This document shows positions 9,104 through 49,676 of a DNA stretch of 64,000 bases, piece by piece. The position numbers and the translations under genes are program-made. This DNA comes from Acidobacteriota bacterium (GTDB taxonomy: Bacteria; Acidobacteriota; UBA6911): contig OY761556.1 of NCBI GenBank assembly GCA_963664705.1, positions 5,664,001-5,728,000 of the forward strand, read 5' to 3'. How positions within the stretch are numbered: position 1 is the stretch's first letter; each line of letters starts with the position of its first letter. The notes beneath the pieces are model-generated. The model made no database searches and was not told where the DNA came from. It saw only the letters and a program-made list of their open reading frames with translations.

Positions 9104-9126
9104 GGATTATCTCCCTTGATTTTCAA

Positions 9127-22788: not shown

Positions 22789-22834
22789 ACTGGCAGTCAG
22801 GAGGTCACGAGTTCGATCCTCGTCAGCTCCACCA
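22789..22834 (+). tRNA. 3' half of tRNA-Ala(GGC), second att core
   Basis: Same sequence as 9300-9345. Confidence 0.88.
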
Positions 22835-22977
22835 ATAACCTCTTAAAATACAATCATTTACAATCGGAGAAAAAGAATCAGATAATGCATCTTTCGTTGG
22901 GTGCGCCTGGGGTGCGGATTACTTTTAACGCCGATGTGAATAGATAAGACCTGATTAGTAAAATGGGACATACTGCA

Positions 22978-26223: not shown

Positions 26224-26228
26224 ATACA

Positions 26229-26669
26229 CTAGCCCTGGAAAACGCTGTTGGCTTTCATTTCTGGGTAGGCTTTGTAAATTGCCGAAACCAGGTCTGCGAA
26301 AGAAAGGCTACGAACTATGTTTGATAATCTTGTAATAGTCTGAACCACCTCTGGGTCCAGAGAAGAAAGCACACTTTCTCCGACTACCTGTCCAGCGGAA
26401 GTAGTGCGGTATTTTCTCAATCGCATACTAGGTGATTTTATTATTTCAACCAACCCGGAATCTGCTAGTACATCCAGAATGTCATAAACATCCCGGTCAA
26501 ATGGCCCATAATCATATGGTTCGAAGTTGAAATGCGGGCCGTCTAGTTCCTTCGATAACTTACGATCGAGTAGAAAGAGGAGTTTTTGCATCTGCACCGG
26601 CGAATGCAATGCTCCTTTTGAAACGGCCATTGCTGCCAAAACCAGATCGCGGTTACCCATAACTCCCAA
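26229..26669 (-). CDS. Panacea/SocA (DUF4065)-like or YwgA-like winged-helix protein
   Basis: VQMQKLLFLL..FNFEPYDYGPFDRDVY..GLV, IYKAYP. Confidence 0.7.
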   Translation of the reverse strand: MGVMGNRDLVLAAMAVSKGALHSPVQMQKLLFLLDRKLSKELDGPHFNFEPYDYGPFDRDVYDILDVLADSGLVEIIKSPSMRLRKYRTTSAGQVVGESVLSSLDPEVVQTITRLSNIVRSLSFADLVSAIYKAYPEMKANSVFQG

Positions 26670-27250
26670 GATACCATATTTTTGTTATGGTACGACTAAC
26701 TTATCGGCATACTCATCATATTCCATGGACTTTGGAGTTACTGATGCCACTGAGGATTTACAGCATGCCTTTTAGTATTACTGTGTCATAAATATATATC
26801 AAACCCGCATAAACAGCGGGTTTGATGCGTTTTCACGCTCCAGAGCGACCATGCTGAAACCCGCACCAGGCAAGGGTTAGTATTAGACCCCCAATACAAA
26901 ATGCCCTTAAACGTCGAATGGTGATTTTGATGCTGAATGCCCAAGCTGTTCTTTAACGTAAGTCAGTGGTTCATGCAAATGTTTAGCGTAGGTCGCGGGA
27001 AAAGGATTCGCGGTAGCTCGGATGTTTCCGACACTTGGGGACTCTTGAGAATTCTGGGTTTTGCTTTATAAAATCAGAATTTATATAGACCCCGATTCCG
27101 ATGCCGGGCAGGGCTTTCATTATTTTCAAGGTATACCCCCCAGTGGTGACGGGCACCTATTGAGATTGCATTTCAGATTTGCTGAAGGGAAGCTGGAGGC
27201 AACTGGCTCCCTCCAATTTAGTTTTTGGGGAGCCACGTCGTCGGATGTGA

Positions 27251-28552
27251 TCAAAGTCTTCCTGGTGTGTTGCTAAATACAATTGGTGCGCTTGTCACCA
27301 ACAATTGCGGAATGCCTGTTCCGGTCAGTTTAGAAACGGCAGTACCTTCGAAACCATGTGATCGTGCGCTTGTGAGCTTCTGAATTTGCATCGTGGCAAT
27401 GGTCGGCTGATCTACCGCGGTCTGCACGATATTGAGGTGGGGCAGACGGTTCACTGCTTGCCGGTTTGCGCCAGGCACCAAATGGCCGTAAATATCCACG
27501 GTGATTTTGATGCTGGAATGCCCAAGCTGCTCTTTAACATAGGTCAGGGATTCCCCATTCTGAAGAAGCAATGAGGCGAATGTGTGCCTTAGATCGTGAA
27601 ATCTGATGCTGCGCAGGCCGGCTTTCTCCAGACATTTCTGAAAATGCCGCTTCTTTAAATTTTTCATGTCCCGGAAGCCACCATTTTGGTTGGGAAAGAT
27701 CCAGTCTGTTTCTGGTAATTCGTTTTTGCCTTGGGCTAGAAACAATTCCTTTCGCTTACGTCGCAAGTCCAAAAGCGCTGATAGCAGCGCATCTGAAACA
27801 TCAACCTTCCTGATCTTACCTGATTTTGTGAGGTTGATTTTTCCGCGGACAATTCCTCTCCGAATAATCAGGAATTTGCCATTTTTATCGAAGTCGCCCC
27901 ATTGAAGTCCGGCCAGTTCTCCAGAGCGCAAACCCGTGTGAATGGCGCAGAGGAAAAGAGCAAAATGTTTTGGTGAATGCTTATTGACAGCCTCAAGGAA
28001 TTTTATAACTTCATCATTTGTAAGTGGCTGGATCTCTCTGTGTCGTATTGGTGCCTGCCTGTAAAATTCACCCAAGCGGGTTGCCGGGTTGTCTGCAATC
28101 AGTCGCGCCCGCAGCGCTTTATTCAGCATTTTTCGAAGTGTTGCCAGTGTGAGCCTGATTGTATCCTTAGCAAGTCCCTTGCTTACAAGAGAGGAGACAA
28201 ATTCCTCCACACGCTCCCGGGTTATTTCATCAAGGCGCAGCGCTCCTAATTCCTCCCTGAGGTCAACATTGTAGCGTCCCTCGTAACAGTTCCGGGTTGA
28301 TTCGCGAACGGAACCATCCAGCGTTTTCTTGAACCGCTCAAAATATGCATCCAGAGTCGGGGCTGGGGGAGAATCCTTTTTCTTTTCATCTTCTATTGTC
28401 TGGCCTAGTTTGAGCCGAGCTTCGATGTGTTCCTTTACCTTCAGCGCTGCCTTTTCCGAGCCAACTCGTTTGGATTTGCGCTTACCGTGGTGGTTTATAA
28501 ATACCCACCAAGTACCGGAACCTTTAACCTTTTCCCTGATTTGAACTCCCAT
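27251..28552 (-). CDS. Phage-type tyrosine integrase (second family)
   Basis: HTGLRSGEL, TKSG, FHDLRHTFAS, QLGHSSIKITVDIYGH. Confidence 0.95.
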   Translation of the reverse strand: MGVQIREKVKGSGTWWVFINHHGKRKSKRVGSEKAALKVKEHIEARLKLGQTIEDEKKKDSPPAPTLDAYFERFKKTLDGSVRESTRNCYEGRYNVDLREELGALRLDEITRERVEEFVSSLVSKGLAKDTIRLTLATLRKMLNKALRARLIADNPATRLGEFYRQAPIRHREIQPLTNDEVIKFLEAVNKHSPKHFALFLCAIHTGLRSGELAGLQWGDFDKNGKFLIIRRGIVRGKINLTKSGKIRKVDVSDALLSALLDLRRKRKELFLAQGKNELPETDWIFPNQNGGFRDMKNLKKRHFQKCLEKAGLRSIRFHDLRHTFASLLLQNGESLTYVKEQLGHSSIKITVDIYGHLVPGANRQAVNRLPHLNIVQTAVDQPTIATMQIQKLTSARSHGFEGTAVSKLTGTGIPQLLVTSAPIVFSNTPGRL

Positions 28553-28710: not shown

Positions 28711-28896
28711 TTATTTGGAATGCTTCTTGATTGCCATTGTGATCCCCTCGCGCACGAAATAGGACACCGGCAAACCCTCCCTTTCTGAAATCTTTTCCAG
28801 CTGTTTCAATTCCGATTCGGTTAACCGGACGCCGATTTGGTGCTTCTTTCTGTCGACGTCCGGAATCAATCGAAGTCCTTTGCGAGGAGCCATCAA
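28711..28896 (-). CDS. Ribbon-helix-helix DNA-binding protein
   Basis: QIGVRLTESELKQLEKISEREGLPVSYFVREGI. Confidence 0.75.
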   Translation of the reverse strand: MMAPRKGLRLIPDVDRKKHQIGVRLTESELKQLEKISEREGLPVSYFVREGITMAIKKHSK

Positions 28897-29120
28897 TTAT
28901 GTTTACCATTATGATTACCACTTTGTCAATCAGATAATGAAAGATAATTTCCTACGCGTAAACTGTCTGGCTTTCATTTTGAATTTGGATTTCCGCACCC
29001 CCCGCGCACCCGGCGGGTGGTTGCAAGTTTGTTTGACTAGGCTGTTGTTGGGCAACTTTTGCTAAATCAGGTGGTTAGCATTTCCGGCTGTGATAGTGAC
29101 CCCCTGACTACGTATTATTT

Positions 29121-29399
29121 TCAATCCAAAAGCCCTTCCATTACTTCGTCTACCATGAGATCGAGATCGGGCCAGTCGTTTTTCTCTATGTGTTTCTCCA
29201 TCCATTTCTCTAGGTCTGATTTCTTAAACAGCAGCTTAGATCCGACACGATGATGCTTGATCTCGGGCAGGAGCTTTCTGATAGTTCTTTCGGATAAATT
29301 GAGGTATTCAATCGCCTCGGAAAGGGACAGATATCGATCCTGGTTCAAATACGCAATGACTTCTTTGACCGATACCAAACCCTGCAGAACTTGGTCCAT
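29121..29399 (-). CDS. Excisionase-like HTH protein
   Basis: YLSLSEAIEYLNLSERTIRK..RVGSKLLFKKSDLEKW. Confidence 0.85.
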   Translation of the reverse strand: MDQVLQGLVSVKEVIAYLNQDRYLSLSEAIEYLNLSERTIRKLLPEIKHHRVGSKLLFKKSDLEKWMEKHIEKNDWPDLDLMVDEVMEGLLD

Positions 29400-29456: not shown

Positions 29457-29981
29457 TTAGGACAGCCGTTCGTGTTTCTTTATTTGTTCAATTCTTTGCG
29501 CTAATTCCAAAAGGTTCTTCAGCCTTTCATCCGAAAGGACATCCCGGCCTGGATCCTGCACTTTGAGTTCTCGTTGGAGACTGCCGGAGATTTCTGTCGA
29601 TACTCTTTCACGGTACTTCTCGGGTTTGACGGCTTTGAGAAGAAAGATAAGAAGAGTTGTCGACCCCGGGTCGCGCTTGTCCTGCGCTCGCTCAAAGGCG
29701 AGTGACTCAAGATTATCGCCGGCTATTTCCTGCGCATACTCGAAGGCTTTTCTGTATTCGGGATCCTTCAGCCAATGGTAGTGGCTCGAACGGTCGACCC
29801 CGGCAATCTGGGCAGCCCTGGTCAACATGCCGGTTGTTGAGAAGGCTACCAGGAAAGCCCTTTTTTTAGGATGTGGAATATAGCTGAAGAGCTGGTTTTC
29901 CTTTGGTTGAACCCATTCTTCTCCTAGTGGCTCGACCGATTGGGCTGCTTCATATTTTACGAGGCTTATGGCATTAGTCAT
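29457..29981 (-). CDS. Terminase small subunit-like HTH protein
   Basis: KKRAFLVAF..TRAAQIAGVDRSSHYHW..DPEY..LLIFLLKAVKPEKYRE; strong GGAGG RBS before ATG 29981. Confidence 0.7.
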   Translation of the reverse strand: MTNAISLVKYEAAQSVEPLGEEWVQPKENQLFSYIPHPKKRAFLVAFSTTGMLTRAAQIAGVDRSSHYHWLKDPEYRKAFEYAQEIAGDNLESLAFERAQDKRDPGSTTLLIFLLKAVKPEKYRERVSTEISGSLQRELKVQDPGRDVLSDERLKNLLELAQRIEQIKKHERLS

Positions 29982-30146
29982 TTGATACTCCCTCCTCCTG
30001 ATTGGTGGTTTCGGTGGCAAGCGTATGCTCTTTGTTTTGTTGAAGTTAGTCTGGTTGGATTTGACTACTGGACAAGTATTGTGACTGTATTCATGAAGGC
30101 TTGTCTGCAGACCTGAACTTCAGTACGCTATCTTTTTACTTTCGGA

Positions 30147-30427: not shown

Positions 30428-32002
30428 TCATTGCTTTTCGGGTGATTCAATGCCCCGATCGGCTTTCATCAGCTTCCATTGTGGGTACCCTTTCCGAACG
30501 GTAGCTTCTGTGATTTGTAAGCCACCAATGATACAGTCACGTTTCTTTTGCAAAAGAGTCCCGAGACGCGTGGCAGCTGAATGATCAGAACCATCGCCTA
30601 AACCGAAACCGTCCGCACATACAACAAGCTCCCCGGCCTTAACTGGGCAATCCCTGTATTTATCCCACCAACTCAGTAGGAATTTTGTCCAGAGAGCAGT
30701 TTCGGAGTCGGTTTGATCATAAAAGTTTTCACGATTTTCCAAAAATCCCGGGATTTCGGCGCACTCAAGTATGCCGCCAATAATATCGCTCCAGCTTTCG
30801 AAACTGCCGAGCCGATGCCCATTAAATTTAGGACGACCTCGAGCAACCCAGTTTTGGATTAGAGTGAGTACCGCCCATACGAGTTGTGGGCGATTTTCAG
30901 AGACCCAGCCACGCAGGTCGGGGTGCTTAAAGTCTTTTTCGGATCTCTCATAAGGACGCTCCATCTTGGCATCCATTCGAATCTGAATCGTCCTTCGTGA
31001 TAGCTCTTTTGAAAACTGTAGGTTATTCCCGGTTATAACGCATGCACATCTATTTGGAACTCTTTGTACATCGGAGCTGCCTACACGGCGGTCAACATAG
31101 TATTCGGAGGTTGTAATGGCAGAAAGAGCCGCAGAATCAAGCACACGACCAACATTATCAATGATCAGCATTTCCGGACTGCTTAAAAGCATTGAGAATA
31201 ATGTTCGGCGCATTTCGCTTTCATCGGGAGGAGCTGACATATTAGAAGGCCTTTCTCCAGAGATGACATAAGCCAACGTATCACAAAGCAGGCTTGCTCC
31301 GGTTCCTGGGGTTGGCTTATCAATCCCATATAAAGGAGTTGGCCCTGATATCATTTCTCGGGCAGGCTGTTGCAGGATAAGCGCGATGGCATTTGCAAGA
31401 TCGGAACGATTTGTAAACGGAAAATCGAAAAGCAATTCCTCAATTAATAGCCGACGTGCCTCCGTCACCTCCAATGCGGATGGATTTTGAGATACGGAAG
31501 GTAATACGAACCCTGGCATTTGATAATAGTAGATGTTTGCCGCCGGATTATATCCAGGACAAGTCTGTTGGATTCCATCAGCGGCAAAGATAGGGGATCT
31601 AGTAATCCTTTTGAGCGGCGGAAACTCGATCCATGGAAGGGACATAATATCCCTAATTACTTCCAATGGAGGGAAGGCAGGAATTTCATCATCCCCTTTG
31701 AAGGTATAATACTCGGCAGCGCGTGCCGCTTCCCCTCTCATTCCGTCAATCCCTAATTTTGATATCTGGGGGGCTCCTGTCTCGTCGTACCCAATACGGA
31801 CAATGGAGCTACCTCGAGAAAAAATTCGTACAGGCGAATTAGCCAGATGGAGGGCATCTAATGTCTCTCGGACTGCAGACGCTAAATCTTTGTTGCCGGC
31901 ATAAATTCTTGGCAGACCAAAGTTATCTGGATTAAGGGAAATACATTTCATCTTTGTCTCTAGTTGTTCCGACGTGGAACAAGGATGTTCGAGAGAATTC
32001 AT
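30428..32002 (-). CDS. Primase-associated P-loop helicase-like replication protein
   Basis: KPTPGTGASLL (Walker A variant), LIIDNV (Walker B), ITGNN, ELSRR, SFESWS. Confidence 0.7.
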   Translation of the reverse strand: MNSLEHPCSTSEQLETKMKCISLNPDNFGLPRIYAGNKDLASAVRETLDALHLANSPVRIFSRGSSIVRIGYDETGAPQISKLGIDGMRGEAARAAEYYTFKGDDEIPAFPPLEVIRDIMSLPWIEFPPLKRITRSPIFAADGIQQTCPGYNPAANIYYYQMPGFVLPSVSQNPSALEVTEARRLLIEELLFDFPFTNRSDLANAIALILQQPAREMISGPTPLYGIDKPTPGTGASLLCDTLAYVISGERPSNMSAPPDESEMRRTLFSMLLSSPEMLIIDNVGRVLDSAALSAITTSEYYVDRRVGSSDVQRVPNRCACVITGNNLQFSKELSRRTIQIRMDAKMERPYERSEKDFKHPDLRGWVSENRPQLVWAVLTLIQNWVARGRPKFNGHRLGSFESWSDIIGGILECAEIPGFLENRENFYDQTDSETALWTKFLLSWWDKYRDCPVKAGELVVCADGFGLGDGSDHSAATRLGTLLQKKRDCIIGGLQITEATVRKGYPQWKLMKADRGIESPEKQ

Positions 32003-33378: not shown

Positions 33379-33888
33379 TTATTTGGTTCTCCTACGAGTA
33401 AGCTGTTTTCGTAGAGATTCGCGCACAGATTTCAGCTCTTCTGATTTTTCTGGATTGTCGAACAAGGCAAGCCAATCCTTACCGCCAACGCCGGGAATTT
33501 CTGCTTTATTTTCTCTTTCCAGTTGAGCAAAGACATTCCGCAATTTAGCTGAATCGCGAAGTTCGATGGGCTCCTTTATTCCCGCTGAGTGAAGGGTTTG
33601 AACAATCAAAGTGACATTCCCCTCTTTGGGTCGTCCGGCTTTGAGCATTTTCCTTGTCTTTTGTCGTGGTTTTCTGGTTTTTTCGTCGACCGTGCGCATA
33701 GGCAGAATCAGTGCTTTGAGGTTCCAAGCCGTTTCTACTATGGAATCCAGCTTATCTTTAAGTCTCGCACGTAGGTCTTGAGCACCGGGAACTTTTTTTA
33801 ACTCGTGTAGCCTTTTCCTAATATCTTCCTCTTCATCAGCGAGCTTGTTCAGTTCGTCCATGTAATTTGATGACAATGCCGTCTCCAT
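33379..33888 (-). CDS. Hypothetical basic/coiled-coil protein
   Basis: 169-aa ORF containing KAGRPK. Confidence 0.6.
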   Translation of the reverse strand: METALSSNYMDELNKLADEEEDIRKRLHELKKVPGAQDLRARLKDKLDSIVETAWNLKALILPMRTVDEKTRKPRQKTRKMLKAGRPKEGNVTLIVQTLHSAGIKEPIELRDSAKLRNVFAQLERENKAEIPGVGGKDWLALFDNPEKSEELKSVRESLRKQLTRRRTK

Positions 33889-34058
33889 AATTTAGTTTCT
33901 ACGAATATAACGGCGATCATAAACCTTCGTTGTATCTGTCTCAACGAGATTCAAGTTTACATGGAATTGAGTGTTCTCCCAGAGGTCTGAAAATATCGGC
34001 AATGCTCCTAGTCAAATTCTGCTAAATACGTGCTTTTATAATTGTAAAAAGTTTGAGT

Positions 34059-34087
34059 TTGACTGCTGGTCAAGGAAATTGGATAAT
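34059..34087 (+). promoter_or_regulatory. Sigma70-type promoter
   Basis: TTGACT-17 nt-GATAAT; predicted start site coincides with the riboswitch P1 5' strand. Confidence 0.65.
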
Positions 34088-34091
34088 AAAA

Positions 34092-34198
34092 GTGCATCAG
34101 GAGTGGTCCCGAGGGACCCGGCAACCGGCAAGGAGACGCACGGTGCCTTGAACCCCATACGGGTTCGATGCGCGGATATAAGGCCGAAACGAGTCTCC
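34092..34198 (+). ncRNA. SAM-I/IV-type riboswitch aptamer
   Basis: P1 GTGCATC(34092)/GATGCGC(34167); ATCAGGAG junction; short P2 GGTCC-CGAG-GGACC; P3 GGCAACC...GGTGCC; P4 GAACCC/GGGTTC; pseudoknot GGAGAC(34132)/GTCTCC(34193). Confidence 0.82.
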
Positions 34199-34205
34199 GA
34201 AATAC

Positions 34206-34239
34206 GCCGCCGCAATCTGATGGGCGGCATTTTTGTTTT
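34206..34239 (+). terminator. Intrinsic terminator, riboswitch expression platform
   Basis: GCCGCC...GGCGGC followed by ATTTTTGTTTT directly after the aptamer. Confidence 0.75.
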
Positions 34240-34300
34240 ACCTCACCGGCGGCTGTTCCTCCTGATGCCGAATTGTTCATTTTCATGCGGGAGAATAGAT

Positions 34301-34705
34301 ATGTGTGCCGATGGTCAACCCAAACGGAAACGCAAGACCAGGGAAAATCAGGAACCCAGCGAAACCAGCATTGAATATATCCAGCAGGTCCTGCTGCGCC
34401 GGAAAGAGCTGATGGACATATACGGATTTGGGAGTTTAAAGAGGGCCGAAAGGAAACTATTGGAGCAATTACTCCGTGCTCCAAAAATGGATGAGTTAGA
34501 AAAATATCTCCAGGTTGAGGCGGAAATAAAGAAGTTATCTGATCAAATTGCTTTTTGTGACGATCAGTGTGCAGTTTTACCAAAGAGCATTGATTTTTTG
34601 GTAGTGAACATATCGATGCAGGATGGGCATCACCCGTCGTCACGGTGTCCTTGCGGCCCCGATATCCTACTGTATGTGAACGGAGAAGTTGTGGTTCACA
34701 AATAG
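34301..34705 (+). CDS. Hypothetical protein with C-terminal His/Cys motif (HHPSSRCPCGP..VVH)
   Basis: GGGAG RBS before ATG 34301; the longer GTG start at 33971 would run through the riboswitch. Confidence 0.55.
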   Translation: MCADGQPKRKRKTRENQEPSETSIEYIQQVLLRRKELMDIYGFGSLKRAERKLLEQLLRAPKMDELEKYLQVEAEIKKLSDQIAFCDDQCAVLPKSIDFLVVNISMQDGHHPSSRCPCGPDILLYVNGEVVVHK

Positions 34706-34734
34706 CACTGTATGTCCTCATTGGAGTGTTGGTG

Positions 34735-34980
34735 ATGGTCGTAATCGTTAAGAACGGTAAGATCGAAACAATCGATGTCGAGCTTGAAAATTACGATAGC
34801 ATCGATTTGTTCTGGTTGTTGTCAGACAAAGCCAGAAGTTGGATAAAGGGCAATGTGCATGTCGAGGACTGGCAAAGGTTCGGGAATGCGCTGGCAGTGG
34901 AGCACAGAATGGCCGGTGATCTTACTCAGGGGATGCTGAATAGCGGACTGATTGTGAAAACCTCAGAACCGGGGACGTGA
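34735..34980 (+). CDS. Small phage-like hypothetical protein
   Basis: GGAG RBS; ENYDSIDL..ARSWI..WQRFGNALAVEHR. Confidence 0.6.
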   Translation: MVVIVKNGKIETIDVELENYDSIDLFWLLSDKARSWIKGNVHVEDWQRFGNALAVEHRMAGDLTQGMLNSGLIVKTSEPGT

Positions 34981-35024: not shown

Positions 35025-35240
35025 TCACACACGCGACATCAGTTGTGAAATGGTCATATCGAATGCAATAGCGAGGACTTCCAGATTGCGGAGGCAGATT
35101 TCTTTTTTCCCGTTTTCCAGATCAGAGATGAAGCTGCGGTCAATGCCAACGTGCTCGGCCATGTAGACCTGGGTCCAGCCACGGCTTTTCCGTAGTTGGC
35201 GTAGCCGTTTTCCAAATCTGATACAAATATCGTTCGACAC
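35025..35240 (-). CDS. XRE-family (controller-protein-like) HTH regulator
   Basis: FGKRLRQLRKSRGWTQ..GIDRSFISDLENGKK; imperfect palindrome TAGTCGAT-AA-ATCGGCTA at 35266-35283 upstream. Confidence 0.88.
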   Translation of the reverse strand: MSNDICIRFGKRLRQLRKSRGWTQVYMAEHVGIDRSFISDLENGKKEICLRNLEVLAIAFDMTISQLMSRV

Positions 35241-41720: not shown

Positions 41721-41967
41721 GTCTCTTCCTCGCAGAGCTCTATTTTTTTAATCAGCTTCAGTAAATACTCTGATTCGAAACGACAGTGTTTTCGTAAATG
41801 AATTATCACCTCTACGGCTGCAAAGCTGTCGCAATCAGGACCGTGCTGTATTATATTCGTCATTTCATTGTAAAACTCTCATTCTTTGGACTTTCTCTGT
41901 ATCGAAGTTTAGTGCTGCCTGATCAGGCCTCTGCCTTTCGACATGGCGCACCAATTCGGAGTTGATC

Positions 41968-44367
41968 GTGGCTATCAAAAAATCGGAAATATATACGTCT
42001 TTGTGGCAGAGCTGCGACGAGCTACGCGGCGGTATGGATGCCAGCCAATACAAAGACTACGTTCTCGTTCTACTGTTTATCAAATACATCAGTGACAAAT
42101 ATGCAGGGGTACCGTATGCGCCGATCACCATCCCACCCGGCGCCAGCTTCAAAGATATGGTTGCCCTCAAAGGGAAATCGGACATAGGCGACCAGATCAA
42201 TAAAAAGATCCTCGCCCCGCTGGCAAAGGCTAATCAGCTGTCTGACATGCCGGATTTCAATGACGCAACCAAGCTCGGCAGCGGCAAGGACTTGGTGGAA
42301 CGGCTCACCAATCTAATCGCCATTTTCGAGAACAAGGCGCTAGATTTCTCAAAAAACCGCGCTGATGGTGATGACATCCTTGGCGATGCCTACGAGTATT
42401 TGATGCGGCACTTCGCATCCGAAAGCGGCAAAAGCAAAGGTCAGTTTTACACCCCAGCTGAGGTCAGCCGCATTATGGCGCAGATCCTCGGTATCCGAGA
42501 TGCGAAGATCACCAGTGCTACCACCGTTTATGATCCTACCTGCGGTTCAGGTTCGCTCTTATTGAAGGTTAGCGATGAGGCCGGGGTGAGGGTCACCCTG
42601 TATGGGCAGGAAAAGGATGCGGCTACCAGCGGTCTTGCCCGTATGAACATGATCCTGCACAACAATCCTACGGCACTCATAAAGCAGGAAAACACGCTGA
42701 CCAATCCTCAGTTCAAAAACGGCGAGATGCTCAAAACCTTCGACTATGTCGTTGCAAATCCGCCGTTTTCCGATAAGCGGTGGAGTACCGGTCTCGATCC
42801 GCTGAACGACCCCTATCAGCGCTTCCAGCTCTTTGGCACGCCGCCCAATAAACAGGGCGATTATGCCTATCTTCTGCACATTGTCGCCTCTCTCAAGAGC
42901 ACCGGCACAGGTGCTTGCATATTGCCGCACGGTGTCCTGTTCAGAGGTAATGCTGAGGCGGATATCCGCCGGAATCTCCTCCGAAAGGGCTATATCAAAG
43001 GGATCATTGGCCTGCCGACGAATCTCTTTTACGGCACGGGAATTCCTGCCTGCATCGTTGTGGTCGACAAGAAGAATTCCCACGCAAGAAAGGGCATTTT
43101 TCTAATCGATGCCAGTGCGGGTTTTATGAAAGACGGCCCCAAGAACAGGCTGCGGGTTCAAGATATTCACAAGATTGTCGATATATTCAACCGGCAGCTC
43201 GAAGTCCCCGGGTATGCCCGCATGATCTCCTTAGAGGAGATCGAGAAAAATGAGTTTAACCTCAACATTCCGCGCTATATCGACAGCCAGGAACCTGAGG
43301 ACATCCAGGATATCGAGGGACATCTCAAGGGCGGCATTCCCATTGCTGACGTTGAAGCCCTTCATCGTTATTGGGAAGTCTGTCCAAAACTGCGGCAGAC
43401 TCTGTTCAAGAAAAATCGCGCTGGTTATGTGGATCTCGCTGTGGACAAGGCGGCTATTAAGTCCACGATCTACGAGCACCCAGAATTTGCCGCCTTCATC
43501 ACGGGCATGAACTCTCATTTTGCCGCTTGGTCTCAGGAAAATGGCAAGTCCCTGCGGCAATTGAAGTCCGGATGTCATCCAAAGGAAATCATCGTCAAGC
43601 TCTCCGAGGATCTACTGGCCTATTACTCCGGCAAGCCGTTGATCGACAACTACGACGTTTATCAGCATCTCATGGACTACTGGGCCGAGACTATGCAGGA
43701 CGATTGCTACATCATCGCCGCTGACGGCTGGAGAGCAGAGACGACCCGCATCGTTGAGAAGGACAAGAAAGGCAATGAAAAGGACAAGGGCTGGACGTGC
43801 GATCTCGTGCCCAAGTCCCTCATCGTTGCCCGCTACTTCGCCAAGGAACAGGCGGCACTAACCCAACTGGAAGCCGAGTTGGAAGCCGTTACGGCCCGGC
43901 TGACGGAGATGGAGGAAGAACACGGTGGGGAGGAGGGAGCTTTCTCCGAGCTCGAAAAGGTGAACAAGGCCAACGTTACTGCCCGGCTAAAGGAGATTAA
44001 AGGGGATAAGGAGGCCAAAGACGAATCCGCCGTTCTCAACGAATGGATGAAGCTCAGCAACGAGGAAGCTGACCTCAAGAAACGCGTCAGGGACGCCGAG
44101 GTGGCATTGGATGCCAAAGCCTATGCCCATTACCCCAAGCTCACAGAAAATGACACCAAGGCGCTCGTAGTGGATGATAAATGGCTTGCAGCTCTGGATG
44201 CCGCAATCCACGGCGAGATGGACAGCATCAGCCAAGGGCTAACCCAGCGAGTGAAGGAACTTGACGAACGCTACGAAACACCGATACCGGGAATGGTTAG
44301 CCGGGTGGCCGAGCTGGAGTCGAAAGTGAACCGGCACCTGGAAGAGATGGGTTTTACATGGAAGTGA
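41968..44367 (+). CDS. hsdM: Type I R-M methyltransferase subunit
   Basis: LRGGMDASQYKDY, GQFYTP, YDPTCGSG, ANPPF, LPHGVLFRG. Confidence 0.97.
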   Translation: MAIKKSEIYTSLWQSCDELRGGMDASQYKDYVLVLLFIKYISDKYAGVPYAPITIPPGASFKDMVALKGKSDIGDQINKKILAPLAKANQLSDMPDFNDATKLGSGKDLVERLTNLIAIFENKALDFSKNRADGDDILGDAYEYLMRHFASESGKSKGQFYTPAEVSRIMAQILGIRDAKITSATTVYDPTCGSGSLLLKVSDEAGVRVTLYGQEKDAATSGLARMNMILHNNPTALIKQENTLTNPQFKNGEMLKTFDYVVANPPFSDKRWSTGLDPLNDPYQRFQLFGTPPNKQGDYAYLLHIVASLKSTGTGACILPHGVLFRGNAEADIRRNLLRKGYIKGIIGLPTNLFYGTGIPACIVVVDKKNSHARKGIFLIDASAGFMKDGPKNRLRVQDIHKIVDIFNRQLEVPGYARMISLEEIEKNEFNLNIPRYIDSQEPEDIQDIEGHLKGGIPIADVEALHRYWEVCPKLRQTLFKKNRAGYVDLAVDKAAIKSTIYEHPEFAAFITGMNSHFAAWSQENGKSLRQLKSGCHPKEIIVKLSEDLLAYYSGKPLIDNYDVYQHLMDYWAETMQDDCYIIAADGWRAETTRIVEKDKKGNEKDKGWTCDLVPKSLIVARYFAKEQAALTQLEAELEAVTARLTEMEEEHGGEEGAFSELEKVNKANVTARLKEIKGDKEAKDESAVLNEWMKLSNEEADLKKRVRDAEVALDAKAYAHYPKLTENDTKALVVDDKWLAALDAAIHGEMDSISQGLTQRVKELDERYETPIPGMVSRVAELESKVNRHLEEMGFTWK

Positions 44368-45650
44368 AGCGCGGATACAAACAGACAGAGGTAGGAGTAA
44401 TTCCGGAGGATTGGCATCTTCGGCCACTGTTGACCGTAGTTCGTGTGGCAAGTGGTCAGGTTGACCCAAGGATTGAGCCCTACCATTCGATGACTCTCGT
44501 CGCACCCGACCATATAGAGAGCAGCAGCGGACGCTTGCTATTAAAGCAGACAGCAGGTGAACAACGAGCAATTAGCGGTAAATACCTCTTCGCACCTGGT
44601 GACGTTGTTTACAGCAAAATTCGTCCGTATCTGAGGAAAGCAATTCTGGCTGATTTTGAAGGGCTCTGCAGCGCGGATATGTATCCACTGAAGCCCGCAG
44701 CCGAGGTCTCAGCCGGGTTTGTATTTTCTGCACTGCTTGGACATCATTTTTCCAAATATGCTGAGTCGGTGTCGGTTCGAAGCGGGATGCCGAAGATCAA
44801 CAGAGCTGAATTAGCTGAATATACGATGGCACTCCCGCCCACTAGAGCCGAACAAGAAGCCATTGCCGACGCATTGAGCGATGCAGATGCCCTCATCGAA
44901 TCCCTGGAGCAACTCATTGCCAAGAAAAGCCAGATCAAACAAGGGGCCATGCAGGAATTGCTAACGGGCAATAGGCGTTTGCCGGGTTTTACATCCAAAT
45001 CGGGTTATAAACAGACCGAAGTGGGGATGATTCCGGAGGATTGGAATACAGTAACATTGGAATACGCTGCCGTTCCTGGGGGCCTCGTTAGGGGTCCGTT
45101 TGGCGGAACCTTAAAAAAACAATTTTTCGTAAGAGACGGCTACAAGGTCTATGAACAAAGAAACGCTATTTACGGGACAGTTGATAAGGGCGATTACTTT
45201 ATCTCTAGAACCAAGTTTAAAGAGTTGGAACGCTTTCGCGTCCGTCCTGGGGATTTAATAGTAAGTTGCTCGGGAACAATTGGGTGCATTTACAGGATTC
45301 CCCAGGAAGCACCAGAAGGAATAATAAATCAGGCTCTCCTCAAAATCTCCTTGAACGAGGAGAAAGTAAATCATGGATTCTTTCTTGCTGTTTTCGGATC
45401 CAAACAGTTTCAGGCGCGTATCAAAGAGAATACTCATGGTGGGGCAATGCAAAACCTCGTTGGAATGGATGTTTTTATGAAAACATTATTCCAAATCCCT
45501 CCCCAAAAAGCCGAACAAGAAGCTATTGCAGCCATTATTGGCGATATGGATGATGAGATTACTACATTGGGATCAAAGTTAAATAAAGCCCGCCAAATCA
45601 AACAAGGCATGATGCAGGAACTCCTAACCGGAAGGATACGTCTCGTATGA
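44358..45650 (+). CDS. hsdS: Type I R-M specificity subunit
   Basis: Two TRDs with duplicated GYKQTEVG.IPEDW and AEQEAIA..KQG.MQELLTG. Confidence 0.96.
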   Translation: MEVKRGYKQTEVGVIPEDWHLRPLLTVVRVASGQVDPRIEPYHSMTLVAPDHIESSSGRLLLKQTAGEQRAISGKYLFAPGDVVYSKIRPYLRKAILADFEGLCSADMYPLKPAAEVSAGFVFSALLGHHFSKYAESVSVRSGMPKINRAELAEYTMALPPTRAEQEAIADALSDADALIESLEQLIAKKSQIKQGAMQELLTGNRRLPGFTSKSGYKQTEVGMIPEDWNTVTLEYAAVPGGLVRGPFGGTLKKQFFVRDGYKVYEQRNAIYGTVDKGDYFISRTKFKELERFRVRPGDLIVSCSGTIGCIYRIPQEAPEGIINQALLKISLNEEKVNHGFFLAVFGSKQFQARIKENTHGGAMQNLVGMDVFMKTLFQIPPQKAEQEAIAAIIGDMDDEITTLGSKLNKARQIKQGMMQELLTGRIRLV

Positions 45651-46564
45651 AAAACTACTACCGAGTCATGCTTGGAAAAAAAAGCGCTCATGCGGCGGAA
45701 TGTTTTGCAGGCAACTTCATTGGTGCTAATTTCGGTATCAAGCAGGACCTGTCACATAAGCTGCCGGAGGAATGGCGTGCCTTTAATGAGGAATTCATTC
45801 CTGTATATCTCAATCTCTTTCCCGGTAAGACAAAGATCAGCGCTGGATTGGCATGCGGCGCACTGTGGACTGTCTGCAAAGGAATCAGGAAAGGTGACAT
45901 AGTGCTTTGTCCCGACGGAGAGGGTGGCTACCGTGTTGGTGAGGTAAGCGGAGAATACAGCTACGAACAAGGAGAAATCCTTTGTCATAGACGGCCAGTT
46001 TCCTGGTCAAACGTCACGATCGATAAATCTACGATGAGTGAGCCTTTGAGACACTCCGCAGGTTCAATTGGAACCGTAAGCACGATTACTCGGCATAGCG
46101 ATGAAATCGAAAAGCTGATCAGCGGAAATTCAAAACAAAAGGCCGATGACGAAATAGTAGAGGACCCTTCTGCATTCGCATTAGAGGAGCATCTGGAGGA
46201 TTTTCTCGTAAAAAACTGGGCTCACACTGAGCTTGGCAAAGACTATGACATTTACGAGGAGGATGGAGAAAAAGCACAACAGTACCAAACCGATACTGGT
46301 CCACTCGATATTCTTGCCGTCAGTAAAGATAGAAAGAAGCTGCTGGTTATTGAGTTGAAAAAGGGTCGTGCCAGTGACGCGGTAGTGGGCCAGATCCTTC
46401 GCTACATGGGGTTTGTTCAGGAAATGCTTGCGGAAAAAGATCAGAGTGTACATGGATTAGTAATCGCCCTGGAAGATGATCAGAGGATCCGTCGAGCATT
46501 GGCGATGGTAAAGAATATCCAATTCTATCGATATCAAATCAGCTTCAAATTAGTGAAAGCATAA
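45647..46564 (+). CDS. NucS/DUF91-like endonuclease-domain protein inside the hsd operon
   Basis: FALEEHLEDFL, GPLDILA, IELKKGRASDAVVGQILRYMG. Confidence 0.85.
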   Translation: MKNYYRVMLGKKSAHAAECFAGNFIGANFGIKQDLSHKLPEEWRAFNEEFIPVYLNLFPGKTKISAGLACGALWTVCKGIRKGDIVLCPDGEGGYRVGEVSGEYSYEQGEILCHRRPVSWSNVTIDKSTMSEPLRHSAGSIGTVSTITRHSDEIEKLISGNSKQKADDEIVEDPSAFALEEHLEDFLVKNWAHTELGKDYDIYEEDGEKAQQYQTDTGPLDILAVSKDRKKLLVIELKKGRASDAVVGQILRYMGFVQEMLAEKDQSVHGLVIALEDDQRIRRALAMVKNIQFYRYQISFKLVKA

Positions 46565-46565
46565 G

Positions 46566-49500
46566 ATGACTCCAATAGGCCAGGCAGAACGCGCTACACA
46601 GGACCGCGTCATTGCTCTATTTCGGAACGAACTGAAATACAAATATCTCGGCGATTGGACAGACCGAGACGGCAATAGCAATATCGAGGAGGGGCTCCTT
46701 ACCGATTACCTGACTAAATGCGGTTACGGTCAAGCACAGATCAGTAGGGCCATTTACCTCCTTCATACCGAAGCCGATAACCACAATCGTGGTCTTTATG
46801 GCAACAATAAGGCTGTATATAACCTGCTGCGGTATGGCGTGCCGGTTAAGATAGAAGCAGGCAAAGTCACAGAAACCGTTCACCTCATCGACTGGAAAGA
46901 ACCAAAGAAGAATGATTTCGCTATTGCTGAAGAGGTTACTCTTCACGGGAATAACGAACGGCGACCGGACATAGTCCTTTCCGTGAACGGCATTGCTATC
47001 GGAGTGCTCGAACTGAAGAACAGCCGAATCTCCATCGGCGATGGCATCCGTCAAAACCTTTCCAATCAGCAGCCAGAATTCAATGAATGGTTCTTCAGTA
47101 CGGTTCAGTTCATCTTTGCTGGCAATGATTCAGAAGGGCTGCAGTACGGGACAATTGGTACACCGGAGAAGTATTTCCTGAAATGGAAAGAAGAGGAGGA
47201 AGATAACAGCCGTTTTAAGCTCGACAAATACCTGCTGAAGATCTGCGTCAAAGAGCGCCTGATCGAGCTGATGTACGACTTCGTGCTATTCGATGGAGGC
47301 GTGAAGAAGCTGCCACGGGCACACCAGTATTTTGGGATCAAGGCTGCGCAGCGACATGTAAATGAAAGCAAGGGCGGCATCATTTGGCATACACAGGGCA
47401 GCGGTAAGAGCATTGTCATGGTGCTTCTGGCGAAGTGGATTCTGGAGAATAATCCCAACGCCCGAGTTGCCATCATCACAGACCGGGATGAATTGGACAA
47501 GCAGATTGAGCGGGTCTTCACAGAAGCGGGAGAAGCCATAAAGCGCACCGGCAGCGGTCGTGACCTGATGAACCAGCTCAGCCAGGCTGCCCCACGCCTC
47601 TTATGCTCTCTGATCCACAAGTTCGGCAGGAGAGACGTAGATGACCTCGACGCGTTCATCAAGGAACTGGAAGCTCAACCGAGCCAGACTGTGGGAGAGG
47701 TTTTTGTTTTCGTGGACGAATGTCACCGGACCCAGAGTGGACGACTGCACCGGGTGATGAAGGCGATGATGCCCAACGCGATCTTCATCGGCTTTACTGG
47801 CACACCTCTATTGAAAAAGGATAAGCAGACGAGCCTGGAGGTTTTTGGCGGCTACATCCACACCTATAAGTTCAGCGAAGGCGTTGAAGACAATGTCATA
47901 CTCGATTTGATTTATGAGGCGAGGGATATTGACCAGCATCTCGGGTCGGTAGACAAAATCGATGCCTGGTTCGAGGCCAAGACCAAAGGCCTGAACGATT
48001 GGCAGAAGGATGAGCTGAAAAAGCAGTGGGGCACGATGCAGCATGTGCTCAGCTCAAAATCCCGCATGGATCGGGTGGTGAGCGACATCATCTTCGATTT
48101 CGGTACTAAGCCACGCCTTTCGAGCCAACGCGGAAACGCCATCCTGGTTGCCTCCAGCATTTATGAGGCTTGTAAGTATTTCTCACTATTCCAGAAAACA
48201 CCGTTTAAGGGCAGGTGCGCGGTGGTTACCTCCTACAACCCGCAAGCACAGGACGTGACCAAGGAGGAGATCGGAGCCCATACTGAGACCGACAAACAGT
48301 TCATCTTCAACACCTACACTGAACTGTTGACGGATGTTGCGCCCAAACCGGGCATGACAAAGACTGAGACTTACGAGGAGACTGCCAAAACGCTGTTCAC
48401 GAAGGAGCCTGCGAATATGAAGCTCCTCGTCGTTGTGGACAAGTTGCTGACTGGTTTTGACGCACCGCCCTGCACCTACCTCTATATCGATAAATCAATG
48501 CAGGATCACGGGCTGTTCCAGGCCATATGCCGTGTTAACCGGCTGGATGGGGACGACAAAGATTTCGGCTATATCGTCGATTACAAGGATCTGTTCAAGA
48601 AAGTCGAAAACGCCATTGCTGTTTACTCGTCAGAATTAGATCACAGCTCTGGAGGCGCTGCTCCGGAGGTGCTGCTGCAAGATCGTCTGAAGAAAGGGAG
48701 GGAACGGCTGGATGATGCGCTTGAAGCTCTTTTCCTCCTTTGTGAGCCCGTCGAAAAGCCGAAAGGCGAGTTGGAGCACATTCATTCCTTCTGCGGAAAT
48801 ACTGAAATTCCGGCAGACCTGAAGGAACGAGAGCCACGACGCTCTGCACTATATAAAGCTGTGGTAACCCTCGTAAGAGCATATGCCAACATCTCGGATG
48901 AGCTGGATGCAGCCGGATACAGCGGCGCTGAAATAAATCGAATCAAGAAGCAGGTTGAAGAGTATTTGAATCTTCGGGAAATCATTCGCAAAGCCAGCGG
49001 CGAGAGCTTAGATCTGAAGGCGTACGAAGCTGATATGCGGCACCTCATCGATACGTATATTGAGGCTGACGAGCCGAGAAAGATCTCGCCTTTCGAGAAT
49101 ATCGGGTTATTAGACCTTATCGTAAAAACCGGAATTGCCAATGCCATTGCGAATCAGCTCAGCAGCCTTAAAGGTAATAAGGACGCAATTGCGGAAGTGA
49201 TTGCAAATAATGTCCGCAGCAAAATTATTAGAGAGCATCTGAACGATCCGGCTTTCTATAACAAAATGTCCGCATTATTGGACGAAATCATTGCAGCCAG
49301 GAAGGCCAAGGCAATTGAATACGAAGAATACCTGAGACGCATTGCGGAATTGGCTAAGAAAGTGCAGGCCGGACACTCAGATGAGCTGCCGGAACAGCTC
49401 GATACGCCAGGCAAACGTGCTCTGTACAACAACCTCAAAAAGGAAGCCGGGGCTGCTGTTGCGGAGGCTGGTGCAAGCTATTCCCCTGAGAATGACAACG

Positions 49501-49676
49501 ATCTGCTCGAATTAGTCCTCAGAATTGATGATGCCGTGAAAAGCACCAGGCCAGACGAATGGCGTGGAGTGCAATCCAGGGAGCAGGTGATCAAGGCTGC
49601 TCTTTATGGCATCTTACAGGATCCTGCCGAAGTGGAGCGTATTTTCCTAATCATCAAAGCACAGAGTGAATACTGA
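46566..49676 (+). CDS. hsdR: Type I R-M restriction subunit
   Basis: RPDIV..ELK, WHTQGSGKS, VDECHR, GFTGTP, LLTGFDAP, QAICRVNR. Confidence 0.97.
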   Translation: MTPIGQAERATQDRVIALFRNELKYKYLGDWTDRDGNSNIEEGLLTDYLTKCGYGQAQISRAIYLLHTEADNHNRGLYGNNKAVYNLLRYGVPVKIEAGKVTETVHLIDWKEPKKNDFAIAEEVTLHGNNERRPDIVLSVNGIAIGVLELKNSRISIGDGIRQNLSNQQPEFNEWFFSTVQFIFAGNDSEGLQYGTIGTPEKYFLKWKEEEEDNSRFKLDKYLLKICVKERLIELMYDFVLFDGGVKKLPRAHQYFGIKAAQRHVNESKGGIIWHTQGSGKSIVMVLLAKWILENNPNARVAIITDRDELDKQIERVFTEAGEAIKRTGSGRDLMNQLSQAAPRLLCSLIHKFGRRDVDDLDAFIKELEAQPSQTVGEVFVFVDECHRTQSGRLHRVMKAMMPNAIFIGFTGTPLLKKDKQTSLEVFGGYIHTYKFSEGVEDNVILDLIYEARDIDQHLGSVDKIDAWFEAKTKGLNDWQKDELKKQWGTMQHVLSSKSRMDRVVSDIIFDFGTKPRLSSQRGNAILVASSIYEACKYFSLFQKTPFKGRCAVVTSYNPQAQDVTKEEIGAHTETDKQFIFNTYTELLTDVAPKPGMTKTETYEETAKTLFTKEPANMKLLVVVDKLLTGFDAPPCTYLYIDKSMQDHGLFQAICRVNRLDGDDKDFGYIVDYKDLFKKVENAIAVYSSELDHSSGGAAPEVLLQDRLKKGRERLDDALEALFLLCEPVEKPKGELEHIHSFCGNTEIPADLKEREPRRSALYKAVVTLVRAYANISDELDAAGYSGAEINRIKKQVEEYLNLREIIRKASGESLDLKAYEADMRHLIDTYIEADEPRKISPFENIGLLDLIVKTGIANAIANQLSSLKGNKDAIAEVIANNVRSKIIREHLNDPAFYNKMSALLDEIIAARKAKAIEYEEYLRRIAELAKKVQAGHSDELPEQLDTPGKRALYNNLKKEAGAAVAEAGASYSPENDNDLLELVLRIDDAVKSTRPDEWRGVQSREQVIKAALYGILQDPAEVERIFLIIKAQSEY

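What the first reader, a model, noticed from the sequence alone, without database searches (positions are those of the whole stretch)
34059..34980. SAM-I/IV riboswitch gating two phage-like genes of unknown function inside a satellite
Seen: a complete unit of promoter (TTGACT-17-GATAAT), aptamer (P1-P4, AUCAGGAG, GGCAACC/GGUGCC, GGAGAC/GUCUCC pseudoknot), terminator, and ORFs 34301-34705 and 34735-34980. Neither ORF resembles a Met, Cys or SAM enzyme or transporter. Known: SAM-I superfamily switches are usually OFF with SAM bound and control sulfur metabolism, and phage SAM lyases such as T3 SAMase deplete SAM to defeat Type I R-M and BREX. Inference: this could be an RNA sensor that turns on effector genes when SAM collapses. 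It could guard the Type I R-M 7 kb away, or act as a metabolic cue for the satellite.
Basis: partly seen in the sequence, partly recalled or inferred. Interest (0 to 1): 0.88.

Follow-up and report, generated by a model that had tools for sequence, protein, structure and literature searches.

The report
SAM-shortage switch on a phage satellite
An RNA switch of a known SAM-sensing family sits on a phage-satellite-like element in front of two small unknown genes, one from a phage protein family, and is predicted to turn them on when the methyl donor SAM runs short, likely letting mobile DNA react to a SAM drop of the kind some phages cause.

Summary
Observation confirmed. 34089-34202 is a SAM-I/IV riboswitch (Rfam RF01725, 55.9 bits, cut-off 41.1) with all SAM-pocket positions intact. 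It has a two-layer platform: copies of the P1 3' strand in the terminator loop (34217) and in a hairpin over the ribosome site (34259). Prediction: OFF with SAM, ON without. The leader is homologous from -35 to the ATG in close relatives, but with different cargo genes. Of 80 classifiable relatives, 48 front non-sulfur genes. ORF1 has no homologue anywhere searched. ORF2 belongs to an unnamed phage family, and none of its 17 homologue loci carries the switch. It lies at the end of a PICI-like element inside a 51.6-kb defence island. The guard idea is not excluded: 5 of 9 host-family loci lie within 10 kb of R-M/BREX/DISARM/Hma genes. Outside the family the figure is 4 of 31 versus 0 of 16 (p=0.28), and neither ORF matches a known effector. 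Best reading: a shuffled SAM-shortage cassette with phage-type cargo. This scan has reported the same pattern on other DNA many times; my paper searches did not find it in print.

The parts
34059..34087 (+). sigma-70-type promoter TTGACT-17-GATAAT; predicted start about 34094, directly at P1
   Evidence: 10 of 12 consensus matches; not above chance alone; position conserved, TTG at -39..-32 in 71 of 93 relatives vs 8.3 control
34089..34202 (+). SAM-I/IV aptamer: P1 34094-34098/34167-34171, continuous P2, P3, P4, P5, pseudoknot PK2 34132-34137/34193-34198
   Evidence: Rfam RF01725 55.9 bits; covariation across 8 close relatives
34206..34239 (+). intrinsic terminator GCCGCC/GGCGGC with U-rich tail; its loop holds CUGAUG (34217-34222), complementary to the P1 5' strand (predicted antiterminator pairing)
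34252..34303 (+). hairpin covering the Shine-Dalgarno GGGAG (34289-34293); its 5' arm holds CUCCUGAUGC (34259-34268), a perfect 10-nt complement of the transcript's 5' end (predicted translational layer)
   Evidence: same design in relatives that front metK and unknown genes
34301..34705 (+). ORF1, 134 aa orphan; predicted helical middle, Cys/His-rich C-terminus (C86 C90 H110 H111 C116 C118 H133)
   Evidence: start codon in register with relatives' start codons; no homologue; AlphaFold pLDDT 40.6
34735..34980 (+). ORF2, 81 aa, member of an unnamed ~65-aa phage protein family (invariant W36); own SD GGAG 34723-34726
   Evidence: no Pfam family
35025..35240 (-). XRE HTH regulator, convergent on the operon; 80% identical copy at the edge of another satellite-like element (G018)
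33379..33944 (-). divergent promoter-like site (33944-33916) and first orphan gene (33379-33888) of the satellite's leftward operon, back to back with the switch promoter
30428..32002 (-). primase/helicase-type replication protein (covers only the C-terminal part of the PHROG profiles)
   Evidence: phrog_10537 1e-86, phrog_19930 6e-34; a relative in G025 is 750 aa
29457..30020 (-). terminase small subunit
   Evidence: phrog_4044 2e-15, phrog_309 9e-15
28711..29399 (-). Arc-like repressor (28711-28896) and excisionase-type HTH (29121-29399)
27251..28552 (-). tyrosine integrase of the satellite-like element
   Evidence: PF00589 8.5e-29; phrog_1
41962..49676 (+). Type I R-M (hsdM, hsdS, inserted NucS-like gene, hsdR), in the same att-bounded interval as the switch
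22789..22838 (+). tRNA-Ala(GGC) 3'-half att repeat; left border of the 51.6-kb interval (right border at 74438, outside the window)

Best explanation
This is a SAM-I/IV riboswitch leader that is predicted to keep two small accessory genes off while SAM is plentiful and to turn them on when SAM falls, and it likely moves among mobile islands as a promoter-to-start-codon cassette that picks up changing cargo. Shown: family membership, an intact pocket, conserved platform elements, different genes behind near-identical leaders, and the phage kinship of ORF2. Predicted, SAM bound: P1 and PK2 hold, the terminator forms, and any read-through RNA keeps its ribosome site paired. Predicted, SAM low: the freed 5' strand GCAUCAGGAG pairs first with CUGAUG in the terminator loop (read-through) and then with CUCCUGAUGC (which loosens the ribosome site). 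Inferred: the output is a non-lethal response of mobile and defence DNA to SAM shortage, whether from methionine starvation or from a phage SAM lyase. Here it is carried out by an orphan and a phage-type small protein whose target is not identified; elsewhere it includes a spare metK.
For: Rfam hit. The residues within 5 A of SAM in SAM-I numbering (6-8, 11-12, 44-47, 57-59, 87; PMC6890682 passages) have the same letters here as in this genome's SAM-I switch and in a sister switch that fronts metK (mapping by motif). Compensatory changes: 7 of 29 pairs change on both sides among 8 close relatives, 0 of 500 shuffles reach that, and slid controls give 0-2; three such changes are in this copy. 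A copy of the P1 3' strand follows the aptamer in 70 of 93 switches (10.0 expected) and two copies in 21 (0.6 expected). Duplexes with the 5' strand: P1 -8.1, loop copy -8.6, anti-RBS copy -18.7 kcal/mol. The ligand-free full leader folds best in the ON form, -83.0 vs -77.6. The leader aligns from -35 to ATG with relatives that carry other genes. 48 of 80 classifiable switches front non-sulfur genes and 32 front metK/metH/metX-like/Cys genes. Unknown cargo shares an operon with metK in L090 and in three related genomes (L251, L253, L255). Transposase, resolvase, TA or restriction markers lie within 4 kb of 10 of 34 non-canonical vs 0 of 16 canonical loci, p=0.02. ORF2 homologues lie in runs of small phage genes.
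Against: No binding, termination or expression data (no RNA holder was available). This copy shows drift: one broken pair in P5 (A34176-G34183) and a weaker terminator than its seven relatives (-12.3 vs -14.8). Its ribosome-site hairpin is not more stable than shuffles (144 of 1000), and its OFF-ON opening difference is 3.7 kcal/mol, below 7 of 8 relatives (5.7-14.5). ORF1 has no homologue at all and a language-model recognition score below the known-family range. ORF2 homologues never carry the switch (0 of 17). The satellite's own att sites were not found. Kin are not independent in the counts, and the GTDB scan stopped at 120 rows. What the cargo does is inferred from company only.
Confidence: 0.45

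Rival explanations
1. Guard system: a phage SAM lyase empties the SAM pool to disable Type I R-M or BREX, the switch senses the drop, and ORF1/ORF2 arrest or kill the infected cell as a second line of defence.
For: T3 SAMase lowers SAM and shuts off EcoKI and BREX (bioRxiv 2023.02.27.530186, passages). PARIS and PrrC are precedents for anti-anti-restriction, and satellites carry such systems (PMC9122126, passages). In the host family 5 of 9 loci lie within 10 kb of such systems: Type I R-M (here), DISARM DrmD/DrmMI at 2.9 kb, BREX BrxL/PglZ at 1.8 kb, HmaC/DUF499 at 3.3 kb, HmaA at about 9.5 kb. In this genome about 1% of bases and 0 of 19 tyrosine-recombinase loci are that close. Double repression would suit a toxic product. 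The genome also holds BREX and a second Type I R-M.
Against: Outside the family only 4 of 31 vs 0 of 16 (p=0.28; 5 of 31, p=0.15, counting a DrmD-like helicase). No DNA methyltransferase or SAM-lyase Pfam family at E<=1e-12 within 4 kb of the 34 non-canonical loci scanned. Neither ORF has a PADLOC or Pfam effector match. The same double platform fronts metK (L007, L123, L124), so it does not mark toxicity. A lethal output would also fire in plain methionine starvation (inference). One of the five family cases (L016) fronts metK, not an unknown gene.
Confidence: 0.2
2. Stranded or decaying switch: the cassette landed here by shuffling, its original cargo was replaced, and the present ORFs are passengers with no SAM-related role.
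For: 0 of 17 ORF2-homologue loci have the switch. ORF1 is an orphan. Drift in P5, the terminator and the translation layer. Broken examples exist among close relatives: an insertion cuts the platform in L163/L167 and the cargo frame is short in L166 and L235. The satellite has no recognisable att sites and a truncated-looking replication gene.
Against: P1, the pocket, PK2 and the terminator base are unchanged, and three paired changes in P2/P4 keep pairing in this copy. The anti-RBS/SD hairpin is re-paired around ORF1's own SD, with the ATG in register. ORF2 is an intact member of a real family with its own SD.
Confidence: 0.18
3. Life-cycle cue for the satellite: low SAM signals helper-phage infection or weak host restriction, and the phage-type proteins help the element to excise, replicate or counter host defence at that moment.
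For: The operon is back to back with the satellite's leftward promoter and ends at an XRE regulator that also caps another satellite-like element. ORF2's relatives sit in phage small-gene runs beside DUF6876, DUF7222 and SprT-like genes. Eight viral contigs carry Rfam-positive SAM-I/IV switches.
Against: Most sister switches are not on satellites. Neither ORF resembles an antirepressor or excisionase. Flat contig depth and no excision joint (contigs drop rare forms).
Confidence: 0.1
4. Altered ligand: the RNA is a variant that senses a SAM-related compound (SAH, dcSAM, MTA, a polyamine or a SAM-derived signal), which would explain the odd genes.
For: A SAM-I variant senses spermidine and was found through odd gene links (PMC10853860, passages). 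The GAGA-type L3 loop is commoner before non-canonical genes (36 of 49) than before canonical ones (7 of 32) (the 49 include L104).
Against: The spermidine variants change J1/2 and P3 pocket nucleotides; none of those is changed here. Near-identical leaders front metK. The L3 difference tracks lineage and PK2, not the pocket. Caveat: the survey pattern fixed most pocket letters, so it could not find pocket variants.
Confidence: 0.05

Closest known systems
SAM-I/IV riboswitch (Rfam RF01725; 'variant SAM-I/SAM-IV' of Weinberg et al. 2010, PMC2864571, passages; architecture as summarised in PMC6890682, passages)
   Same: Scores above the family cut-off; continuous P2 without internal loop, P4, P5, PK2, and all listed SAM-contact positions.
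   Different: Fronts an orphan and a phage-family gene on a satellite-like element instead of metK/metH/metX. It has a two-copy anti-P1 platform (termination plus ribosome-site control) that I did not find described; Trausch 2014 and Weinberg's Additional File 1 were not read.
SAM-I (S-box, RF00162), e.g. this genome's single copy at C1:3201599
   Same: Same pocket letters; predicted OFF with SAM by termination.
   Different: That copy fronts a Cys/Met PLP enzyme (recognised by eye) in the core genome. SAM-I has a kink-turn and PK1, and its antiterminator classically uses the P1 3' strand (recalled); here the 5' strand is the switching strand.
Spermidine riboswitch (SAM-I variant, PMC10853860, passages)
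   Same: A SAM-clan fold in front of unexpected genes.
   Different: It has changed pocket nucleotides and polyamine genes; neither is seen here.
PARIS and PrrC anti-anti-restriction systems (PMC9122126, passages)
   Same: Logic of the guard rival: respond when a phage disables the first line; often on satellites.
   Different: Those sense a phage protein with a protein sensor and have known toxic effectors. Here the sensor is an RNA for a metabolite and no effector activity is known.
PICI-type phage satellites (PMC10085698, passages)
   Same: Integrase, small regulators, primase-type gene and terS in about 8 kb, with cargo at the far end.
   Different: No capsid-morphogenesis gene, no AlpA/MerR/Stl hit, no att sites found; Acidobacteriota host (inferred from named records of the same family).

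Membership tests
SAM-I/IV riboswitch (RF01725) | Covariance-model score above the gathering cut-off | tested here: met
   55.9 vs 41.1 bits
SAM-I/IV riboswitch (RF01725) | SAM-pocket nucleotides (SAM-I 6-8, 11-12, 44-47, 57-59, 87) | tested here: met
   AUC 34096-8, GA 34101-2, CAAC 34122-5, UGC 34144-6, A 34168; same letters in L002 and L007
SAM-I/IV riboswitch (RF01725) | Continuous P2 with no internal loop or PK1; P4 present | tested here: met
SAM-I/IV riboswitch (RF01725) | P5 and pseudoknot PK2 (L3 with 3' tail) | tested here: met
   GGAGAC/GUCUCC 6 of 6 complementary; P5 present with one A-G mismatch. PK2 was not in the covariation count because its columns were out of register.
SAM-I/IV riboswitch (RF01725) | Binds SAM selectively and changes expression | not testable with these tools
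   needs in-line probing and transcription assays
SAM-I/IV riboswitch (RF01725) | Typical (not structural) trait: leads Met/SAM/Cys genes | tested here: not met
   no Pfam or PHROG match for either ORF; ORF2 is a phage-family protein
Spermidine riboswitch (SAM-I variant) | Changed nucleotides in J1/2 and the P3 internal loop; polyamine genes downstream | tested here: not met
   pocket unchanged; definition
PICI satellite | Integrase | tested here: met
   27251-28552
PICI satellite | Regulation module (AlpA, MerR or Stl) | tested here: inconclusive
   Arc-like repressor, excisionase HTH and XRE found, but none of the three named families
PICI satellite | Primase-replicase module | tested here: met
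   30428-32002, C-terminal part of primase/polymerase PHROGs only
PICI satellite | Small terminase subunit | tested here: met
   29457-30020
PICI satellite | Capsid-morphogenesis gene (absent in many true PICIs) | tested here: not met
   no head PHROG other than terS among the ORFs scanned; three orphans remain unassigned
PICI satellite | Own att repeats and excision on helper induction | tested here: inconclusive
   no element-specific repeat found; no joint in contigs
Anti-anti-restriction guard (PARIS/PrrC-like) | Recognisable toxic effector domain | tested here: not met
   no PADLOC hit at 1e-8 and no Pfam hit for ORF1 or ORF2
Anti-anti-restriction guard (PARIS/PrrC-like) | Growth arrest triggered by a phage anti-restriction protein | not testable with these tools
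   needs co-expression with a SAM lyase and phage challenge
SAM lyase (PF23780) | Profile match | tested here: not met
   no hit for either ORF or in the genome (the search's controls were also silent, so absence from the genome is not shown)

The most novel reading that the evidence does not exclude
Mobile islands across Acidobacteriota, Verrucomicrobiota and other phyla use a shuffled SAM-I/IV cassette as an RNA alarm for SAM collapse caused by phage SAM lyases. It switches on interchangeable effectors (here an orphan plus a phage-family protein) that back up neighbouring SAM-dependent defences such as Type I R-M, BREX and DISARM. This would be a riboswitch-triggered layer of bacterial immunity, and the switch would be a sequence tag for finding dozens of new effector families.
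Probability: 0.2. Interest if true: 0.9.

Novelty: new variant of a known kind. Interest (0 to 1): 0.62.

Why it matters
SAM riboswitches are textbook feedback controls of sulfur metabolism. Here, and in 48 of 80 sampled relatives, an intact SAM-type switch fronts genes with no link to that pathway, often on mobile DNA and in the host family often beside methylation-linked defence genes. So some unknown biology is gated by SAM shortage. Because phages destroy SAM to beat R-M and BREX, the question whether cells or their satellites sense that loss becomes directly testable with a 250-nt leader, a reporter and a SAM lyase. The two-copy anti-P1 design (one RNA strand controlling both termination and ribosome access) is also a compact, testable switch architecture.

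Tried and rejected
ORF1 homology: nothing in the 5.8-billion set, the 1.84-billion representatives, the ESM Atlas, viral contigs, GenBank phages or PDB (best E 0.9). Single-sequence AlphaFold models were too poor to use (pLDDT 46.8 and 40.6); the viral fold search for ORF2 gave no hit under E 0.3. ORF2 word searches first found only itself or chance hits; the family appeared only through tblastn of GenBank phages. An ORF2 profile gave no PDB hit under E 0.1. A remembered likeness of ORF1's H-H-x-C-x-C-G-P tail to small phage proteins found no support. A 237-aa antisense frame (34008-34721) was set aside: it overlaps the switch and scores lower for codon use (-0.17 vs -0.01); the shuffle z-scores of that test did not discriminate and are not used. 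The first viral pattern scan gave 7 hits, all chance. Satellite att sites were not found. No RNA holder listed; the four runs laid showed no variants (one had no reads). The host metK leader has no Rfam hit. Trausch et al. 2014 is not held. Paper searches for a prior description of SAM switches gating mobile or defence genes gave none in the listings seen; subscription papers and Weinberg's Additional File 1 were not seen and may bear on this.

Full report
1. Observation. The aptamer at 34089-34202 is the only Rfam match in the window: RF01725 SAM-I/IV, 55.9 bits against a cut-off of 41.1. It is the genome's only SAM-I/IV. The genome's one SAM-I switch fronts a Cys/Met PLP enzyme that I recognised by eye, and the single metK has no Rfam leader. 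The promoter alone is within chance (2 found, 2.6 expected), but TTG lies 32-39 nt before P1 in 71 of 93 related switches against 8.3 in control windows, so transcription is predicted to start at P1.

2. The aptamer. The positions within 5 A of SAM in SAM-I numbering (PMC6890682, passages) map by motif to AUC 34096-8, GA 34101-2, CAAC 34122-5, UGC 34144-6 and A 34168. The letters are the same in the genome's SAM-I and in a sister switch before metK. P2 is continuous, and P4, P5 and the 6-bp PK2 are present, as described for SAM-I/IV (PMC2864571 and PMC6890682, passages). Among 8 close relatives, 7 of 29 pairs change on both sides; 0 of 500 shuffles reach this and slid controls give 0-2 (kinship inflates this test, and PK2 and the RBS hairpin were left out because their columns were out of register). 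This copy has two compensatory changes in P2 and one in P4, but also one broken pair in P5 and a terminator of -12.3 against -14.8 kcal/mol in the other seven.

3. The platform has two layers. CUGAUG in the terminator loop (34217-34222) and CUCCUGAUGC (34259-34268) are both complementary to the 5' strand of P1. The second forms the 5' arm of a hairpin over the SD sequence of ORF1. Such a copy follows the aptamer in 70 of 93 switches (10.0 expected) and twice in 21 (0.6 expected). Duplex energies with the 5' strand are -8.1 (P1), -8.6 (loop) and -18.7 (anti-RBS). Up to the terminator the OFF fold is ahead by 4 kcal/mol; for the whole leader the ON fold is ahead by 5.4 (neither SAM nor the pseudoknot is modelled). 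Prediction: SAM bound, termination plus a blocked ribosome site; SAM low, read-through and translation. Against: the RBS hairpin alone is matched by 144 of 1000 shuffles, and the OFF-ON opening difference here (3.7 kcal/mol) is below 7 of 8 relatives.

4. The genes. ORF1's ATG is in register with the start codons of relatives whose leaders align from the -35 box onward, but ORF1 has no homologue. ORF2 is real. Three GenBank phage proteins match weakly (E 1e-3 to 4e-2). Their alignment found 13 viral loci, about 9 distinct, and one copy beside an integrase remnant in a same-family genome (1 of 136 other genomes of the class). W36 is invariant in 11 sequences. The family has no Pfam name. It lies mostly in runs of small phage genes, next to DUF6876, DUF7222, SprT-like and gp32-like genes, and occurs as a domain in two large phage proteins. 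None of 17 homologue loci has a SAM switch within the 1.5-2.5 kb held. Neither ORF hits PADLOC or the SAM-lyase family.

5. The setting. Leftward lie three orphans, a primase-type gene, terS, an excisionase, an Arc-like repressor and an integrase. That is three of the five PICI core components for certain and a regulator of another type (definition: PMC10085698, passages). Rightward the operon ends at an XRE gene with an 80% identical copy at the edge of another satellite-like element. No att sites of its own were found, and contig depth is flat with no excision joint. 3'-half repeats of tRNA-Ala(GGC) at 9299, 22789 and 74438 put the satellite core, the switch, the Type I R-M (7.8 kb from the aptamer), GmrSD and an Hhe-like helicase in one 51.6-kb interval. 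Named records of the same family are Acidobacteriota.

6. Relatives. In 61 related genomes, 11 have the switch; of the 13 matches outside this genome 1 fronts metK, 11 front other genes and 1 is at a contig end. A GTDB pattern scan stopped at 120 loci; 96 passed my structural filter (not all checked by Rfam). Of these, 15 were too short to classify and one lies in an unpublished genome (L104, G245) and is left out. Of the other 80, 32 front metK, metH, metX-like or Cys genes and 48 do not: a Verrucomicrobia-rich miniprotein (19), a Cys-rich 'FDGFPY' family, MoxR ATPases, an ADP-ribosylglycohydrolase and orphans. The closest leaders (6 real among 9 metagenome hits) carry other cargo or are broken. 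Unknown cargo shares an operon with metK in L090 and in three related genomes, which argues for SAM as the ligand. In viral contigs 8 of 11 candidates tested (from 53 pattern hits) pass the Rfam cut-off; one fronts metK.

7. Test of the guard idea. Within 4 kb, transposase, resolvase, TA or restriction families occur at 10 of 34 non-canonical and 0 of 16 canonical loci (p=0.02). Six miniprotein loci and four canonical loci were not scanned, and no DNA methyltransferase or SAM-lyase family reached E 1e-12. Within 10 kb, the host family shows R-M, DISARM, BREX or Hma genes at 5 of 9 loci with usable context (one of the five fronts metK, and for Hma the methyltransferase itself was not seen). In this genome about 1% of bases and 0 of 19 integrase loci lie that close, by a ten-protein tblastn panel that underestimates cluster size. 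In other genomes the figure is 4 of 31 against 0 of 16 (p=0.28; many contigs end before 10 kb). So non-canonical switches favour mobile DNA, and the link to SAM-dependent defence is suggestive in one family and unproven in general. The premise is sound: T3 SAMase lowers SAM and disables EcoKI and BREX (bioRxiv 2023.02.27.530186, passages), and anti-anti-restriction systems occur on satellites (PMC9122126, passages).

8. Verdict. Most likely (0.45) this is a working SAM-OFF cassette that shuffles among mobile islands and here drives an orphan and a phage-family protein as a non-lethal response to SAM shortage. Rivals: lethal guard 0.20, stranded switch 0.18, satellite life-cycle cue 0.10, other ligand 0.05 (precedent PMC10853860, passages). 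The RNA is a member of a known class by every sequence test; its use and its two-copy platform make it a new variant. Seven paper searches showed no prior description in their listings. Trausch 2014 was not held, PMC11477058 (passages) added nothing, and Weinberg's supplement was not read. Earlier notes of this scan report the same pattern in many other genomes; they are unchecked notes, not independent evidence, and none covers this leader or ORF2. Interest 0.62.

Noticed in passing
window 7615-9348 and 21105-22838: A 1734-bp block with an identical integrase is duplicated (99.6%); each copy ends in a tRNA-Ala(GGC) 3'-half repeat. Five such repeats follow the tRNA gene over 170 kb: a tandem array of islands.
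   Followed up: partly
window 52924-54704 (-): ABC-type ATPase (AAA_21; weak PADLOC AriA/AbiLi hits) followed by a 218-aa gene with a faint TOPRIM hit: a possible PARIS-like pair in the same island as the Type I R-M.
   Followed up: no
window 25480-26669 (-): SocA/Panacea-like gene overlapping a proteasome/HslV-like gene just left of the satellite integrase; a proteasome-like gene also follows a SAM-I/IV switch in L003.
   Followed up: no
window 26896-26972: Remnant of a second integrase 3' end, 82% like 27477-27553, suggesting an earlier related insertion.
   Followed up: no
window 35888-38482, 40668-41720, 45647-46564, 50666-52462, 55889-61060: Other defence-type genes of the island: DEAD helicase with weak MrfA Zn domain, Mrr-type nuclease, NucS-like PDC-S02 inside the hsd operon, GmrSD, Hhe/DUF4011 helicase.
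   Followed up: partly
G000 C1:1034971-1044500: A second small element with a 49% identical integrase at tRNA-Val, with primase-, terminase-, capsid- and portal-like genes (read by eye): possibly a capsid-forming satellite.
   Followed up: no
G000 C1:5.588 Mb and 6.33-6.35 Mb (L282, L281): A second Type I R-M methyltransferase and a BREX cluster (PglX, PglZ, BrxL) in the same genome, neither with a SAM-I/IV hit nearby.
   Followed up: partly
L251, L253, L255: SAM-I/IV switch, then MoxR ATPase, unknown genes and metK on one strand in three related genomes.
   Followed up: partly
L020 15720-16309 and L027: Two back-to-back switches (G032) and two switches in series (G036), fronting a shared unknown ~360-aa family and a MoxR ATPase.
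   Followed up: no
L188 3996-4248; L184 3996-4092: Viral contigs: SAM-I/IV plus SAM-V in tandem before metK (L188); a SAM-I/IV before an 84-aa unknown gene next to terminase- and portal-like genes (L184, read by eye).
   Followed up: no
L163/L167; L235 9607-9819: Damaged cassettes: a transposase-like insertion cuts the platform (L163/L167); a three-recombinase element follows a short cargo frame beside BREX (L235).
   Followed up: no
L301 3327-3405: Type II hammerhead ribozyme (40.5 bits, cut-off 37) in a phage small-gene run 0.7 kb from an ORF2 homologue.
   Followed up: no
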